A stretch of 16,062 bases of DNA from Candidatus Heimdallarchaeota archaeon (GTDB lineage: Archaea > Asgardarchaeota > Heimdallarchaeia > Heimdallarchaeales > Heimdallarchaeaceae): contig JAEOSZ010000123.1 of assembly GCA_016840095.1 (NCBI GenBank), forward strand, positions 1 to 16,062, read 5' to 3'. Within the stretch, counting starts at the first letter, position 1. Each line of letters opens with the position of its first letter. The notes below the pieces were generated by a model. That model did not search any database and had not been told where the DNA came from. It saw only the letters and a program-made list of their open reading frames with translations. Shown here one piece after another: positions 4,972-8,409 of the stretch. The translations under genes were made by a program, and so were the position numbers.

Positions 4972-6708
4972 ATGAAAAGCAAAAAATTATTTTATATGTT
5001 TAATATTCTTATTCTATATTGTTTGATAAGTGCTCTTACCACCTTTAATGCAGATGCTCTCAAGGATGAGAATCAAAAGAATTACAATATCAGTACAATA
5101 GACAGATCTTCTTGGGCTTGGACAGGACCTCAAATAATTTCCTCTGAAAGTGATATGGGTTCATTTAAACCTCAAATAGTAAATGATGAAGAAGGCAATC
5201 TCTATTGTGTTTGGGATGACAATTCAGGTATTCTAGGTTCAGGCAATGATTGGGATATTCTGTTTAAGCGATGGGATGCTGATACTTTTGAATGGAGTCT
5301 TACAGAAGTAATATCAACAGAAAGTGTAAATGATTCTACTAACCCCTTCATAACAATAGACTCAATTGGAAACATCTATTGTGTATGGGAAGACGATTCA
5401 GATTACTTAGGAGCTGAAGAAGATGATGACATATTCTTCAAGTTCTGGAATTCCACAATCTCTTCATGGACAACTACAGAAGTAGTTTCTACTGAAAGTA
5501 CAGCTAATTCTCAAAATCCAGTATTAGGTTTCGATAAATATGGTATATTCTATATAGCATGGCACGATAACACTCCTATTCTAAGTTCTAATACAGATGC
5601 TGATATATTCTTAAAACGATGGACATCTTTAAATGGAACTTTCGGTCCAACTGAACTTGTTTCCACAGAAAGCAATGGTTTTTCCTTTAAACCCTATATT
5701 ATTGTAGATCCTGAAGGTCACTTCTTTTTAACTTGGCAGGACAATACTAATTATTTAAGCGCAGGTACCGATTACGATATATTCTTCAAAGCTTGGAATT
5801 ATACTGGTTATACCTGGTCATCAGCAATAGTGATATCAACTCAAAGTACTCTTGATGCTTGGACTCCTACTATGGTACAGGATTCGAATTATGATATTCA
5901 CTTTGCATGGAGTGATACTACAGACTATTATGGTACAGCTGGATCTGATAGAGATATCTGCTACAGAAAGATGATTTATGAAACCTCATTTCTGACAAGT
6001 ACTGAAGTCATATCAGTCGTCAGTACTGATATATCAGAAGCTCCTTCTTTGACAATAGATAGTGAAAACAATCTGTATTTAGCCTGGAGTGACCCCACAG
6101 ATTATGATTCAGCTGGAACAGATGTTGATATTTTCTACTGTTATAAAGATGCAACATATGGACTTTGGAGTACAATTGAAGTAATCTCTTCAGAAAGCAC
6201 AATTCACTCACAACAACCTATTTTGCTATTAGATCCCAGTGGAGTTATCCAACTAGTATGGAGTGATGGAACAAATCTATATTCTTCAGGGAGTGATTAT
6301 GATATATTTTACAAATACTTTTCTGGTCCACCTGAAGAGCCAGAGTTAGCTTATATTGTTCCTAACCCTACTGACTCTAATTCCATAATCCTAGATTGGA
6401 GTAATGTTTCTTGGTCATTTGAATACTTTGTCTATAGATCCGACTCTTACATCTGGACTGTTGAAGACCTTACTCCTATTGCTACTTTAACTACTAGTTA
6501 CTATGTTGACACTCTCTCTGCTGAAGGCTACTTCTACTATGTAATTGTAGCTGGAAACGCAGCTGGAAACAGTTCTCGGTCTAACTGTGAATATGTGGAA
6601 TACAGACTCTCACATGTGGGTGAATATACAATTGTAACAAGTATACTACTTGCTACTTTGATTACATCAATCGTATTTTTCAGAATCAAGAAAAGAAAAC
6701 TTGACTAG
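4972..6708 (+). CDS. Membrane-anchored surface (glyco)protein: signal peptide, seven ~58-aa repeats (predicted beta-propeller), FN3-like domain, C-terminal TM
   Basis: Seven copies of (T)EV(I/V)STES...P.h..D..G.hY..W.D........D.DIF.K. FN3-like segment IILDWS...EYFVYRS...YYVD...YYVIVAGNAAGNSSRSN. TM followed by KKRK. Seven N-X-S/T sequons. Confidence 0.85.
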   Translation: MKSKKLFYMFNILILYCLISALTTFNADALKDENQKNYNISTIDRSSWAWTGPQIISSESDMGSFKPQIVNDEEGNLYCVWDDNSGILGSGNDWDILFKRWDADTFEWSLTEVISTESVNDSTNPFITIDSIGNIYCVWEDDSDYLGAEEDDDIFFKFWNSTISSWTTTEVVSTESTANSQNPVLGFDKYGIFYIAWHDNTPILSSNTDADIFLKRWTSLNGTFGPTELVSTESNGFSFKPYIIVDPEGHFFLTWQDNTNYLSAGTDYDIFFKAWNYTGYTWSSAIVISTQSTLDAWTPTMVQDSNYDIHFAWSDTTDYYGTAGSDRDICYRKMIYETSFLTSTEVISVVSTDISEAPSLTIDSENNLYLAWSDPTDYDSAGTDVDIFYCYKDATYGLWSTIEVISSESTIHSQQPILLLDPSGVIQLVWSDGTNLYSSGSDYDIFYKYFSGPPEEPELAYIVPNPTDSNSIILDWSNVSWSFEYFVYRSDSYIWTVEDLTPIATLTTSYYVDTLSAEGYFYYVIVAGNAAGNSSRSNCEYVEYRLSHVGEYTIVTSILLATLITSIVFFRIKKRKLD

Positions 6709-6797: not shown

Positions 6798-7106
6798 CTA
6801 GTTTTTCTCTGATCTAACTTGTTTGAGACAAATTTTACAATAAACAGGTCTAATTCCATCAGGTTTGAAAGGAACTCTTATGGTTTTTTCACATCTTGAA
6901 CATTCAGCTGTGTGGAAGTAAGTAGGTTTTTTTCTTGATCTATCATAATTGGGTCTTTTTTGTCCAGTCCTAACATTATTTCTTGTATATGGTTTACTTT
7001 CACTCCTTTGATGAGGTTTTGTATTTGTATTTTGATAACTCCTTCTTGAGTCATTTGATCTCTCATTTTGAGTTCTTTTTGTGGTTTCTCTTTTTACTTC
7101 TGTCGT
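6798..7106 (-). CDS. CxxC-x17-CxxC zinc-finger protein with disordered Arg/Lys-rich N-terminus (102 aa), putative ACG start; absent from the ORF track
   Basis: Manual translation: (M)TEVKRETTKRTQNERSNDSRRSYQNTNTKPHQRSESKPYTRNNVRTGQKRPNYDRSRKKPTYFHTAECSRCEKTIRVPFKPDGIRPVYCKICLKQVRSEKN*. Exactly 17 residues separate the CxxC pairs, with the family signature VPFKP..RPVYC. There is no in-frame ATG/GTG/TTG after the upstream TGA at 7115-7113. Confidence 0.88.
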   Translation of the reverse strand, partial: TTEVKRETTKRTQNERSNDSRRSYQNTNTKPHQRSESKPYTRNNVRTGQKRPNYDRSRKKPTYFHTAECSRCEKTIRVPFKPDGIRPVYCKICLKQVRSEKN

Positions 7107-7174
7107 GTGTTTTCACCTTTTATAATTTTTAAATTAAAAAAAATAAAGATTGAAAGGAATTCGGAATTGGTTTG

Positions 7175-7192
7175 AAAGACTAATTAGTCTTT
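7175..7192. repeat. Perfect 18-bp palindrome
   Basis: AAAGACTAATTAGTCTTT, spanning the stop codon of the 23-aa ORF. Confidence 0.85.
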
Positions 7193-7251
7193 TTCTTTGT
7201 TGGAGCTTTAGTTGTTGAAGTTTTCTTCTTTGTTGACTTCTTCTTTGCCAT
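7180..7251 (-). CDS. 23-aa lysine-rich micropeptide MAKKKSTKKKTSTTKAPTKKKTN
   Basis: ATG at 7251 preceded by GAGGA-ATAAAT (RBS at good spacing). 10 Lys and no acidic residues. Collinear with both neighbouring small ORFs. Confidence 0.68.
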   Translation of the reverse strand: MAKKKSTKKKTSTTKAPTKKKTN

Positions 7252-7289
7252 ATTTATTCCTCAAATCAATCTTTTATCTTCCAGTCGAC

Positions 7290-7436
7290 TTATGATGCTT
7301 CCTCAGGATAATCGTCATAATATGAATCTTCTTCAAAATCTTCATATTCTTCAAATTCATCATATTCTTCGTCATCCCATTTTTCGTCATACCATTCTTC
7401 TTTTTCGACTAGCTTATTTTTATCTCTTGGATCCAT
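7290..7436 (-). CDS. 48-aa hyper-acidic, aromatic-rich microprotein
   Basis: MDPRDKNKLVEKEEWYDEKWDDEEYDEFEEYEDFEEDSYYDDYPEEAS*: 24/48 D/E and 10 W/Y/F. GAGGT RBS 9 nt upstream. Strong GAN codon periodicity. Confidence 0.75.
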   Translation of the reverse strand: MDPRDKNKLVEKEEWYDEKWDDEEYDEFEEYEDFEEDSYYDDYPEEAS

Positions 7437-7544
7437 AGTATCATTACCTCGAGTTTTTTCTGCTTACTCTCCTCAATCCCCTAAAGCAGCAATTTAACAT
7501 CATCAGGATGAGATGATTGGGCAAAAACTGGAACGCGAATTTAG

Positions 7545-7569
7545 CTTAAAAACTTTCTCATTAGAGAAA
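7545..7569 (-). promoter_or_regulatory. Archaeal BRE/TATA promoter for the microprotein cluster, with an overlapping inverted repeat
   Basis: Minus strand GAAAG-TTTTTAAG (7557-7545). TTTCTC-ATTA-GAGAAA at 7554-7569 overlaps the BRE. Predicted TSS near 7520. Confidence 0.55.
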
Positions 7570-7704: not shown

Positions 7705-8409
7705 GTGAAAATCTTGAAAATCAAGTTAAGTAAACCAAATGAATGGGGAAATTTCATCCATCCTGAAACACTAGAGATTAAGGAAATTGTAGGAGAAATA
7801 CCTGAAAAAGCCATTGTAATAATTCGAAAAAAAGAATATCGTTCTGAGCTAAGTAGATCTGTTGTATCTACCAGATATGGGGTGGTTTCTAAAGGAACTT
7901 TGTTATATTTAACAAAAAAAGATATATCAAAGAAACTAGCTAAACTATTTGTGAATTATACACACAAGCATGAGAAGATTCCTCCCAAAGTAACTATCTC
8001 AGAGAAGAGAGTTGATAACAAACCTGTTGAAATAACATATAATTACAGTACCAATGAATCTTTTCAATTTCTACTAAGTGAAGAGTTGTTAGCAGGTGAA
8101 AATCCAAAAAAATTCATTGAAAAAATAATAACTACTTCAGATAATTTATTTTCGAAAAAGGAATCCTCAAAACAATGGAGAGTAGATAATGCTCCTCATG
8201 GGAGATCATTGTGTAAAAAATGTAAACGGCAAATTAGAGTAAGCGAATTAAATTTAAGAGAAATTAAGGAAAAGGACGATCCTTCTACAACGGAATTCTA
8301 TCACTTTAGCTGTTTTCCTTTTACTAAATATGATCAGTTTTCCATCCATGGAATTAAGAGTTTATCAGAAGAGGATCAAAGGAAAGTAAGAAAAAAAATA
8401 GAAAAATAA
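7705..8409 (+). CDS. Protein with unknown N-terminal domain and C-terminal PARP-type zinc finger (zf-PARP)
   Basis: WRVDNAPHGRSLCKKCKRQI..SEL...FYHFSCF...IHGIKSLSEEDQRKVRK matches the CxxC...HxxC zf-PARP pattern, including the G..L..EDQ..(I/V)R tail. The start may be TTG at 7714 (GGTGA RBS at 7704-7708). Confidence 0.8.
   Translation: MKILKIKLSKPNEWGNFIHPETLEIKEIVGEIPEKAIVIIRKKEYRSELSRSVVSTRYGVVSKGTLLYLTKKDISKKLAKLFVNYTHKHEKIPPKVTISEKRVDNKPVEITYNYSTNESFQFLLSEELLAGENPKKFIEKIITTSDNLFSKKESSKQWRVDNAPHGRSLCKKCKRQIRVSELNLREIKEKDDPSTTEFYHFSCFPFTKYDQFSIHGIKSLSEEDQRKVRKKIEK

What the first reader, a model, noticed from the sequence alone, without database searches (positions are those of the whole stretch)
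6798..7569. Hidden three-microprotein cluster: polyanion, polycation and zinc finger
Seen: the apparent ~1 kb gap has, on the minus strand, a BRE/TATA, an ~85-nt leader and three collinear ORFs, each with its own RBS (GAGGT, GAGGA, AGGTGA). They are a 48-aa protein with 24 D/E, a 23-aa peptide with 10 K, and a 102-aa basic disordered CxxC-x17-CxxC protein. None is in the ORF track. Established: oppositely charged disordered proteins can form functional chaperone/client pairs (prothymosin-alpha with linker histone H1), and CxxC-x17-CxxC domains are predicted Zn fingers of unknown function. Inference: this may be an undescribed chromatin/RNA-packaging or stress module in which the acidic protein buffers or chaperones the two basic nucleic-acid binders, possibly through coacervation.
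Basis: partly seen in the sequence, partly recalled or inferred. Interest (0 to 1): 0.88.

Follow-up and report, generated by a model that had tools for sequence, protein, structure and literature searches.

The report
Conserved Asgard microprotein operon, ACG start
The "empty" kilobase holds a real, transcribed operon, known only from a few Asgard archaeal species, that encodes a very acidic protein, a lysine-rich peptide and a zinc-finger protein that seems to start at the non-standard codon ACG; its function is still unknown.

Summary
On the minus strand lie a BRE/TATA promoter, an 86-nt leader and three ORFs, each behind a Shine-Dalgarno motif at this genome's usual spacing. The same layout recurs at eight loci in six genomes of one Asgard genus, one metagenome contig and five further strain contigs. 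It was not found in the other 58 genomes of the class, and 1.8 billion representative proteins gave only the module's own copies.

Codon-position bias, dN/dS of 0.07-0.3, and in-frame indels inside the acidic ORF support coding. RNA-library contigs of close relatives cover leader, acidic ORF and lysine ORF.

The zinc-finger frame (TIGR04272/PF23477) has no ATG, GTG or TTG. It opens just after a TGA and begins at ACG. That codon is ACG in five lineages and ATG in one, always 5-6 nt after GGTGA. All 24 paralogues checked have an in-frame ATG or TTG.

The module nearly always sits divergent from one PARP-type zinc-finger gene. The leader is better conserved than the ORFs.

The charge-chaperone or coacervate idea is plausible but untested. 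DSS1/Sem1 homology and an H3-tail mimic were tested and rejected. The lineage largely lacks histone-fold genes.

The scan's sibling notes on this window flagged the ACG start too. Another note reports an ACG-start zinc-ribbon gene in a Thermoplasmata genome.

The parts
7545..7559 (-). BRE-like purine stretch plus TATA box (TTTTTAAG 7552-7545)
   Evidence: Read. A TTTATA(A/T) element stands at the same place in all seven leader-bearing loci.
7437..7522 (-). Conserved 5' leader. The first 19 nt (GCCYAATCATCTCWTCYTG) are nearly invariant. A possible long-range helix pairs it with GGGGATTGAGGAG.
   Evidence: Alignments. The core is unique in the genome at up to 3 mismatches. The helix is 91% paired against about 50% when slid, but covariation is not significant and MFE z is +0.67. 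RNA-library contigs of relatives end at 7512 and 7510-7514.
7446..7450 (-). Shine-Dalgarno GAGGT of the acidic ORF, 9 nt before the ATG
7290..7436 (-). Acidic, aromatic microprotein gene, 48 aa, net charge -19, N-terminus MDPRDK
   Evidence: dN/dS is 0.07-0.38 within clades, with third-position bias, e.g. 0/2/9 differences. Indels in relatives' contigs inside the ORF are 9, 3 and 3 nt.
7258..7262 (-). Shine-Dalgarno GAGGA of the lysine-rich ORF, 6 nt before the ATG
7180..7251 (-). Lysine-rich peptide gene, 23 aa, net charge +10, no acidic or aromatic residue
   Evidence: Intact in 7 of 8 loci, dN/dS 0.09-0.3. In the compact clade the acidic ORF's stop overlaps its SD (TGAGGTATAAAAATG).
7136..7143 (-). 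T8 run inside a T-rich spacer, a possible archaeal terminator or attenuator between ORF2 and ORF3
   Evidence: Present in the window, G016 and G020 loci; absent in the compact clade, where only 20 nt separate ORF2 and ORF3.
7113..7118 (-). AGGTGA Shine-Dalgarno of the zinc-finger gene. Its TGA closes the upstream part of the zinc-finger frame.
   Evidence: The GGTGA-to-start spacing optimum in this genome is 4-7 nt.
7104..7106 (-). ACG, the inferred start codon of the zinc-finger gene
   Evidence: The homologous codon is ATG in G015 and ACG in the window, G020, G016 with its strains, G003 and the metagenome contig. It is the only SD+ACG+long ORF without a canonical start in the genome.
6798..7106 (-). 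Zinc-finger protein gene, 102 codons plus stop. Disordered basic N-terminal half, net charge +17.
   Evidence: dN/dS is 0.21 for G015 against the metagenome contig, and the finger part differs at 0/1/7 codon positions.
6813..6917 (-). CxxC-x17-CxxC treble-clef zinc-finger domain
   Evidence: PF23477 scores 45.4 bits (cut-off 27) and TIGR04272 scores 46 bits (cut-off 36). AF2 pLDDT is 90-95, beta-hairpin plus helix.
7705..8409 (+). Divergent neighbour: 234-aa protein with a C-terminal PARP-type zinc finger. Conserved partner locus of the module.
   Evidence: PF00645 scores 44.6 bits. Fold match to PARP-1 Zn1 has Z 10.8, rmsd 3.2, 80 aligned. It lies upstream of 7 of 8 module loci, and every member of this orthologue group found carries the module or its remnant.

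Best explanation
This is a real operon restricted to one Asgard archaeal genus.

Shown:
- One promoter and a strongly conserved 86-nt leader drive an acidic, aromatic disordered microprotein, then a lysine-rich peptide, and in most copies a TIGR04272/PF23477 zinc-finger protein with a basic disordered N-terminus.
- All three frames evolve as coding sequence.
- RNA-library contigs from close relatives of the organism cover the leader and the first two ORFs.

Inferred, about 0.65: the zinc-finger gene is translated from ACG, placed 5-6 nt after a GGTGA Shine-Dalgarno. ACG is a deliberately weak start that keeps its output below that of the two upstream peptides.

Inferred, about 0.3:
- The acidic protein (net -14 to -22) is the counter-ion partner of the co-translated basic products (+10 to +15 and +8 to +17).
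- It holds them off nucleic acid or delivers them to it.
- The module works together with the divergently encoded PARP-type zinc-finger protein, a likely sensor of DNA ends or nicks.
- The leader is the regulatory input, either an operator or a 5'-UTR element.
For: Recurrence:
- The module occurs at 8 loci in 6 of 25 genomes of the genus, plus one metagenome contig and 5 strain contigs.

Coding signal:
- dN/dS is 0.07-0.38 within clades, with an excess of third-position changes.
- Indels inside the acidic ORF are 9, 3 and 3 nt, while the 1-nt indel falls in the spacer.
- Extreme composition is unique in the genome.
- SD motifs sit at the genome's preferred spacing.

Coupling:
- The stop of the acidic ORF overlaps the SD of the lysine ORF. 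Only 20 nt separate the lysine ORF from the zinc-finger start in the compact clade.

Transcription:
- Contigs of about 93-95% identical relatives from a wetland metatranscriptome cover 7180-7329 and 7351-7512.
- A depth-59 contig from a second library labelled metatranscriptomic covers 7267-7514 and ends in Illumina adapter. DNA contigs run on past that point.

ACG start:
- The frame has no canonical start, in the window.
- The in-frame TGA just upstream recurs in an independent MAG.
- A second DNA sample shows no indel.
- The homologous codon is ATG in G015.
- The residues after the start, (M/T)-T, are conserved in this frame.

Link to the PARP-type finger gene.

Charges.
Against: - No experiment or prediction shows any binding among the products.
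- ACG is not an established archaeal start codon. A review lists only AUG, GUG and UUG, and reports that aIF1 rejects AUU (PMC4705826).
- All 24 stand-alone paralogues checked have an in-frame ATG or TTG at the conserved N-terminus.
- No RNA-library contig covers the zinc-finger N-terminal half.
- A T8 run precedes the zinc-finger gene in the window.
- In four lineages a GTG inside AGGTGA is in frame and could be the start there.
- The trio is not obligate: the lysine ORF is degraded in the G016 lineage, and the zinc-finger gene is absent at G020:C24 and G023.
- The module is present in only 6 of 25 genomes of the genus, so it is dispensable.
- The RNA evidence is assembled contigs of relatives, one library being flagged "probably DNA", not raw reads of this organism.
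Confidence: 0.55

Rival explanations
1. Only the leader, acidic and lysine genes are the working unit. The zinc-finger gene behind the T-run is a silenced or dying copy whose ATG decayed to ACG. Where it is expressed (G016, compact clade), it starts at the in-frame GTG or ATG.
For: - ACG is not a recognised archaeal start.
- Paralogues have an in-frame ATG or TTG.
- The zinc-finger gene is missing at two loci.
- A T8 run lies upstream of it in the window.
- No RNA-library contig covers its N-terminal half.
Against: - In the window and in an independent MAG the GTG is out of frame, yet about 100 codons stay open. The chance of that in 33% GC sequence is about 2e-4 by my estimate.
- ACG has persisted across lineages whose synonymous sites are saturated.
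- Purifying selection acts on the frame (dN/dS 0.21; finger differs at 0/1/7 positions).
- SD spacing to ACG is kept at 5-6 nt at all six loci.
Confidence: 0.15
2. The three products are real but do not act on each other. They would be independent small hydrophilic proteins, for example stress-protective disordered proteins or separate nucleic-acid binders, that merely share a promoter.
For: - Parts are lost independently.
- The module is patchy: 6 of 25 genomes.
Against: - The two most extreme, oppositely charged small ORFs of the genome lie 38 nt apart.
- They are translationally coupled in the compact clade.
- Net charges are of similar size at every locus.
Confidence: 0.2
3. The lysine-rich ORF is a leader peptide that senses lysyl-tRNA supply and controls read-through of the T-run into the zinc-finger gene, i.e. 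attenuation.
For: A 10-lysine ORF ends 37 nt before a T8 run in the window. Similar T-runs occur in G016 and G020.
Against: - The compact clade has no T-run.
- G020:C24 and G023 keep the peptide with no zinc-finger gene behind it.
- Folding shows only a small hairpin over the stop codon and no alternative pairings (z -1.6).
- The idea does not explain the acidic ORF.
Confidence: 0.04
4. The acidic microprotein is an archaeal homologue of eukaryotic DSS1/Sem1.
For: - The compact-clade proteins carry KKQP(V/I)D near the N-terminus, as human DSS1 does. The human sequence was verified against PDB chains.
- Both have acidic, aromatic W...WDD-like stretches.
- Smith-Waterman z is 2-4.3 for the four proteins carrying the motif (the compact clade and G023).
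Against: - Pfam DSS1_SEM1 finds none of the acidic ORFs in 25 genomes at E<=10 or by hmmscan.
- A profile search of PDB sequences gave no hit at E<=10.
- Composition-corrected z is -0.1 for the window protein and 0.7-0.9 for its nearest relatives.
- From my own knowledge, that N-terminal motif is not conserved in fungal or plant DSS1/Sem1.
Confidence: 0.03
5. The stretch is non-coding, for example a purine-rich regulatory RNA, and the small ORFs are chance.
For: - The leader is better conserved than the ORFs.
- No protein family matches ORF1 or ORF2.
Against: - Codon-position bias and low dN/dS.
- In-frame indels.
- Conserved start codons and SDs.
- A Pfam and NCBIfam domain above cut-off in ORF3.
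- No Rfam family.
Confidence: 0.03

Closest known systems
Small CxxC-x17-CxxC zinc-binding proteins of Methanosarcina mazei (TIGR04272; Pfam PF23477 zf_Tbcl_2)
   Same: ORF3 scores above both curated cut-offs and has the four cysteines at the defining spacing, with a confident beta-hairpin-plus-helix model. The M. mazei members are abundant small proteins shown to bind zinc; their function is unknown (PMC12704099).
   Different: ORF3 carries a 65-residue disordered basic N-terminal extension and has no canonical start codon. It sits behind two charged microprotein genes. The 24 stand-alone paralogues in this clade have an in-frame ATG or TTG and MSYR/MGYRRYDD N-termini.
Prothymosin-alpha with linker histone H1 (eukaryotic disordered polyelectrolyte pair)
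   Same: Two low-complexity products have large opposite net charge (-19 against +10 and +17). The lysine peptide has an H1-tail-like K/A/P/T composition, most clearly the PAKKAT repeats of the G020 copy.
   Different: There is no sequence relationship. The products are far smaller (23-48 aa), are encoded in one prokaryotic operon, and the acidic one is rich in aromatics. Binding is not shown. This is a functional analogy recalled from the literature, not a tested membership.
DSS1/Sem1 (Pfam PF05160)
   Same: Small acidic, aromatic disordered protein. It shares a KKQP(V/I)D motif with human DSS1 in one clade.
   Different: The family model does not match. After correcting for composition there is no similarity for the window protein.
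Acidic stretches with aromatic anchors in histone chaperones (DEF/Y-type motifs; recalled from memory)
   Same: Runs of D/E are punctuated by F/Y/W every 3-6 residues.
   Different: No histone-fold gene was found in this genome (89% complete), and few were found in its order. The obvious client is therefore missing.
infC-type use of a weak non-canonical start codon (AUU) for translational control in bacteria (recalled from memory)
   Same: A conserved near-cognate start behind a good SD in a single gene of the genome suggests regulated, low-level initiation.
   Different: Different domain of life, codon and factor set. No autoregulatory loop is known here.

Membership tests
TIGR04272 / PF23477 CxxC-x17-CxxC zinc finger | Profile score above the curated cut-off | tested here: met
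   TIGR04272 46 bits against 36; PF23477 45.4 bits against 27
TIGR04272 / PF23477 CxxC-x17-CxxC zinc finger | Four cysteines as CxxC, 17 residues, CxxC, with the VPFKPDG..RPVYC core | tested here: met
   Read. Invariant in five orthologues.
TIGR04272 / PF23477 CxxC-x17-CxxC zinc finger | Compact treble-clef-like fold | tested here: met
   AF2 pLDDT 90-95 over residues 61-100, two strands plus helix. Prediction only.
TIGR04272 / PF23477 CxxC-x17-CxxC zinc finger | Binds zinc | not testable with these tools
   Shown by ICP-MS for two M. mazei members (PMC12704099), not for this protein.
DSS1/Sem1 (PF05160) | Match to the family profile | tested here: not met
   No hit on any acidic ORF at E<=10 in 25 genomes. 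hmmscan gave none. A PDB profile search gave none.
DSS1/Sem1 (PF05160) | Similarity beyond shared composition | tested here: not met
   Smith-Waterman against 2000 shuffles gives z -0.1 for the window protein. Only the compact clade and G023 reach z 2-4.3, through one hexapeptide.
Histone H3 N-terminal tail mimic | Register of K4, K9, K14 and K18 kept among orthologues | tested here: not met
   8 of 22 identities in the window peptide (shuffle P 0.006) but only 2-5 of 22 in six orthologues (P 0.23-0.88).
Disordered polyanion-polycation pair (prothymosin-alpha/H1 type) | Large opposite net charges and co-expression | tested here: met
   -14 to -22 against +10 to +15 and +8 to +17 at every locus. 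One operon, coupled stop and SD.
Disordered polyanion-polycation pair (prothymosin-alpha/H1 type) | High-affinity complex of the two products | not testable with these tools
   Needs ITC, NMR or FRET with synthetic peptides.
Leader-peptide attenuator | Terminator directly after the peptide ORF, at every locus, with a regulated gene behind it | tested here: not met
   No T-run in the compact clade. No downstream zinc-finger gene at G020:C24 and G023.
Anti-phage defence or phage gene families | Match to PADLOC or PHROGs models | tested here: not met
   No family at E<=0.01 for the three products or the neighbour.
PARP-type zinc finger (PF00645), neighbour gene | Profile above cut-off and fold match | tested here: met
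   44.6 bits against 39.3. Foldseek E 1.7e-5, and VIA Z 10.8 to PARP-1 Zn1.

The most novel reading that the evidence does not exclude
Asgard archaeal ribosomes use an SD-guided ACG as a conserved, deliberately weak start codon. The operon encodes a minimal polyelectrolyte system: an acidic, aromatic microprotein escorts a histone-tail-like lysine peptide and an RGG-like zinc-finger protein on and off nucleic acid. It acts with a PARP-type DNA-break-sensing protein in a lineage that has largely lost histones.
Probability: 0.15. Interest if true: 0.85.

Novelty: new variant of a known kind. Interest (0 to 1): 0.62.

Why it matters
Three points make this worth attention.

1. It is a clean, comparative-genomics-backed case of hidden microprotein genes in Asgard archaea, the closest known relatives of eukaryotes. 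Two of the genes have no relatives among 1.8 billion representative proteins.

2. The zinc-finger gene is a strong candidate for ACG initiation in an archaeon. The codon is conserved over saturated divergence, has an ATG counterpart in one species, and is the only such case in the genome. If confirmed, it would extend the known start-codon repertoire of archaea. It would also give a handle on start-codon stringency in the lineage whose initiation factors gave rise to the eukaryotic ones.

3. A co-translated pair of oppositely charged disordered peptides, tied to a PARP-type finger protein in a histone-poor lineage, is a simple testable model. Synthetic peptides could show how charge-driven chaperoning of nucleic-acid binders works outside eukaryotes.

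Against this, the module is dispensable and confined to a few uncultured species.

Tried and rejected
- Rfam gathering scan and tRNA scan of the window: nothing.
- Pfam and NCBIfam for ORF1 and ORF2 and six orthologues, even at E<=10: nothing meaningful.
- PDB sequence profile search with the acidic alignment: no hit.
- Word-indexed and exhaustive protein searches with the acidic alignment: only the module's own copies.
- ESM Atlas look-alikes for the acidic and lysine products: best scores 0.81 and 0.77, below the informative range.
- Search for longer fused forms of the zinc finger: no candidates, which is weak evidence.
- Complex prediction of the acidic protein with the zinc-finger protein and the PARP-type neighbour: no answer (ipSAE 0.42, 0.01, 0.00). 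This is neither for nor against binding.
- DSS1/Sem1 homology: rejected.
- H3-tail register: rejected.
- C/D-box reading of CTGATGATG in the leader: the boxes are not conserved among orthologues.
- Leader as a stable structured RNA: MFE is no better than shuffles (z +0.67). One helix is plausible but covariation is not significant.
- Leader as a multi-copy operator: unique in the genome at up to 3 mismatches.
- Programmed +1 frameshift from the GTG-initiated mini-ORF into the zinc-finger frame: the mini-ORF differs in length (17 against 7 codons), has no known slippery site, and the residues conserved after the start belong to the ACG frame.
- Internal promoter or leaderless start for the zinc-finger gene: a TATA-like AT stretch exists only in the window, not in G016 or G020.
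- Genome-wide use of ACG starts: none other found.
- RNA-library contigs do not cover 6904-7175. This is no evidence of silence.
- The 16S 3' end was not found in this assembly, so anti-SD pairing was judged from motif enrichment instead.
- Literature search for ACG start codons in archaea: nothing relevant.
Full report
WHAT IS THERE

- A purine-rich BRE-like stretch and a TATA box (TTTTTAAG, 7552-7545) come first. The leader runs to the ATG at 7436.
- ORF1 (7436-7290) encodes 48 residues with 24 D/E and 10 aromatics.
- ORF2 (7251-7180) encodes 23 residues with 10 K.
- A third frame (7106-6798) carries CxxC-x17-CxxC.
- Each is preceded by a purine motif: GAGGT 9 nt, GAGGA 6 nt and GGTGA 6 nt before its first codon.

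Two facts were not in the finding.
- The third frame contains no ATG, GTG or TTG at all.
- A T8 run (7143-7136) separates ORF2 from ORF3.

IS IT MORE THAN CHANCE?

- In the organism's own 3.44-Mb assembly (33% GC) I listed all 16,238 ATG ORFs of 20-60 residues in six frames. ORF1 is the only one with at least 45% D+E. ORF2 is one of five with at least 40% K. The two lie 38 nt apart.
- GGTGA, GAGGT and GAGGA are 2.5-6-fold enriched in the 25 nt before long ORFs. GGTGA-to-ATG spacing peaks at 4-7 nt, GAGGT at 6-9 nt and GAGGA at 6 nt. All three motifs therefore sit where this genome's ribosome-binding sites sit.
- A contig from a second DNA sample covers 6835-7334 with one mismatch and no gap. 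The lack of a start codon is not an assembly frameshift.

CONSERVATION

Genome and collection searches find the module at the following places.
- The window.
- G016:C51, plus five near-identical strain contigs from ENA assemblies.
- G020:C82 and G020:C24.
- G015:C207 (record titled Ca. Heimdallarchaeota YT1_048).
- G003:C9 (record titled Ca. Thorarchaeota QM1B.68).
- G023:C128.
- Metagenome contig Ga0209635_10031150.

All the genomes belong to one genus, 6 of its 25 sampled. The acidic profile found nothing in the other 58 genomes of the class. In 1.8 billion representative proteins it found only the module's own copies. The organisms are Asgard archaea from sediments.

The parts vary among loci.
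- The lysine ORF is reduced to a 9-10-codon stub in the G016 lineage.
- The zinc-finger gene is absent at G020:C24 and G023.
- G023 has lost the leader and the acidic start.
- G008 keeps only a leader remnant.

Within clades the three frames show the signature of coding sequence.
- Acidic ORF: differences by codon position are 0/2/9, 2/1/8 and 5/5/18, with dN/dS 0.07-0.38.
- Lysine ORF: 3/4/9 and 5/1/9, with dN/dS 0.09-0.3.
- Zinc-finger ORF: dN/dS 0.21, and the finger part differs at 0/1/7 positions.

In the compact clade (G015, G003, metagenome contig) the acidic stop overlaps the next SD (TGAGGTATAAAAATG). Only 20 nt separate the lysine stop from the zinc-finger start. That is a tightly coupled operon.

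TRANSCRIPTION

Only assembled contigs were available.
- A wetland metatranscriptome holds two contigs of a relative. One covers 7180-7329 with 7 mismatches and 1 gap. The other covers 7351-7512.
- A second library, labelled metatranscriptomic and flagged as possibly DNA, holds a 268-nt contig at depth 59. It covers 7267-7514 and ends in Illumina adapter sequence. DNA contigs run on past that point.
- Both ends lie 8-12 nt inside the start site predicted from the TATA box (G7522). This is a weak hint of a defined 5' end.
- In these relatives the indels inside the acidic ORF are 9, 3 and 3 nt. The single 1-nt indel falls in the spacer. The leader shows one substitution in 75 nt against about six in the 147-nt ORF.
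- No RNA-library contig covers the N-terminal half of the zinc-finger gene. That is not evidence of silence.

THE ACG START

The third frame is a bona fide member of TIGR04272/PF23477 (46 and 45.4 bits, above cut-offs). AF2 models a confident finger (pLDDT 90-95) behind a disordered basic N-terminal half.

The orthologous starts line up as follows.
- Window: AGGTGA-AAACAC-ACG-ACA.
- G020: AGGTGA-AACATA-ACG-ACA.
- G016: AGGTGA-ATGTT-ACG-AAT.
- G003 and the metagenome contig: AGGTGA-CATTT-ACG-ACA.
- G015: AGGTGA-CAGTT-ATG-ACA.

The codon 5-6 nt after GGTGA is therefore in frame everywhere: ATG once and ACG five times. The following residues, (M/T)-T, are conserved in that frame.

A GTG inside AGGTGA is in frame in four lineages. 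It is out of frame, with TGA in frame, in the window and in the independently assembled G020 MAG. About 100 codons nevertheless remain open in both.

ACG has persisted between clades whose synonymous sites are saturated. It is not a fresh inactivating mutation.

Two controls make the case specific.
- All 24 stand-alone paralogues in this clade have an in-frame ATG or TTG at the conserved N-terminus.
- A genome-wide screen for SD plus ACG plus a long frame without a canonical start returns only this gene.

A review of start-codon selection lists only AUG, GUG and UUG for archaea and notes that aIF1 rejects AUU (PMC4705826). The paper library holds nothing on archaeal ACG starts.

I put ACG initiation at about 0.65. 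The main rival is that the gene is silent in the window-type lineages.

LEADER AND NEIGHBOUR

The first 19 nt after the predicted start site are nearly invariant in all seven leader-bearing loci, more so than any ORF. They are unique in the genome.

A helix between this stretch and a downstream GGGGATTGAGGAG is kept in 91% of cells, against about 50% when slid. It has only one covarying pair, and its folding energy is no better than shuffles. I leave it as a conserved promoter-proximal or 5'-UTR element of unknown action.

Upstream and divergent in 7 of 8 loci lies one orthologue group of a 234-residue protein.
- Its C-terminus is a PARP-type zinc finger: PF00645 at 44.6 bits; fold Z 10.8, rmsd 3.2 over 80 residues to PARP-1 Zn1.
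- Every member of that orthologue group found carries the module or its remnant. The paralogues at about 28% identity do not.

FUNCTION

What is shown ends with three conserved coding genes, two of them covered by RNA-library contigs, tied to a PARP-type finger gene.

The charges are the best clue. The acidic product is -14 to -22. The lysine peptide is +10 to +15. The zinc-finger protein is +8 to +17 at every locus. The acidic ORF is the constant partner of whichever basic gene remains.

The ACG start would keep the third product scarce.

Specific identities were tested and failed.
- DSS1/Sem1: no profile match, and composition-corrected z of -0.1 for the window protein. The shared KKQP(V/I)D motif occurs only in the compact clade and G023.
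- H3-tail mimic: 8 of 22 identities in the window peptide, but 2-5 of 22 in six orthologues.
- Defence or phage families: none.
- Histone-chaperone reading: it loses its client. No histone-fold gene was found in this genome (89% complete) with PF00808 or PF00125. Only 7 of 46 genomes of the order have one, against 36 of 36 in the other families of the class.

Complex prediction gave no answer.

VERDICT

The zinc-finger gene is a new member of a known family with an unusual start. The two charged microproteins are orphans of one genus.

Interest is moderate to high for archaeal translation and small-protein biology. It is limited by the narrow, dispensable distribution and by the lack of a cultured host.

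Noticed in passing
whole genome G000 and 82 genomes of its class: Histone-fold genes (PF00808) are missing from most of the window's order. They were found in 7 of 46 genomes, 2 of 24 in the genus, and in neither of the two single-contig genomes G045 and G046. They are present in 36 of 36 genomes of the other families of the class, often in 5-12 copies. PF00125 also finds none in G000. This looks like a largely histone-less Asgard order.
   Followed up: partly
window 7705-8409 (+): A 234-aa protein has a confident PARP-1 Zn1-like C-terminal finger. Its ~150-residue N-terminal domain of beta-strands and two helices has no clear structural match (best Z 6.5 over 59 residues). One orthologue group of it is strictly linked to the microprotein module.
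   Followed up: partly
G000:C48:14661-15536 and many loci in the genus: The CxxC-x17-CxxC domain is greatly expanded in this genus. Up to 9 matches occur per genome, including open frames of about 190 to 445 residues, several with 4-6 tandem matches. The small stand-alone forms have RGG-like N-termini (MSYRNNRNRSGG...).
   Followed up: partly
L046 (G008:C100) and L047 (G023:C128), upstream of their PARP-type finger genes: These loci show decay stages of the module. G008 keeps only a recognisable TATA plus leader remnant with no ORFs behind it. G023 has lost the leader and the acidic start but keeps an intact lysine ORF with its SD.
   Followed up: yes
window 4972-6708 (+): A 578-aa secreted or membrane-anchored repeat protein has about nine repeats ending in D(I/V)(F/C)(F/Y)K and a weak DUF7786 hit. 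It sits between the zinc-finger gene and a nitroreductase. At G020:C24 that nitroreductase directly follows the module, so the repeat gene looks like an insertion.
   Followed up: no
window 7172-7190 (-): A 7-bp hairpin (AAGACUA/UAGUCUU) is centred on the stop codon of the lysine ORF, about 35 nt before the T8 run.
   Followed up: no
L038:1848-1964, L034, L037, L047: The compact-clade acidic proteins (and the start-less copy at L047) share the hexapeptide KKQP(V/I)D with the N-terminus of human DSS1. Their cores are built of EDWYE repeats. The match does not extend to the family profile.
   Followed up: yes
L018:2278-2859, L036, L038:2477-2968: A DUF308/HdeD-like multi-pass membrane protein follows the module at three loci (G016, G020:C82 and the metagenome contig) but not in the window.
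   Followed up: no
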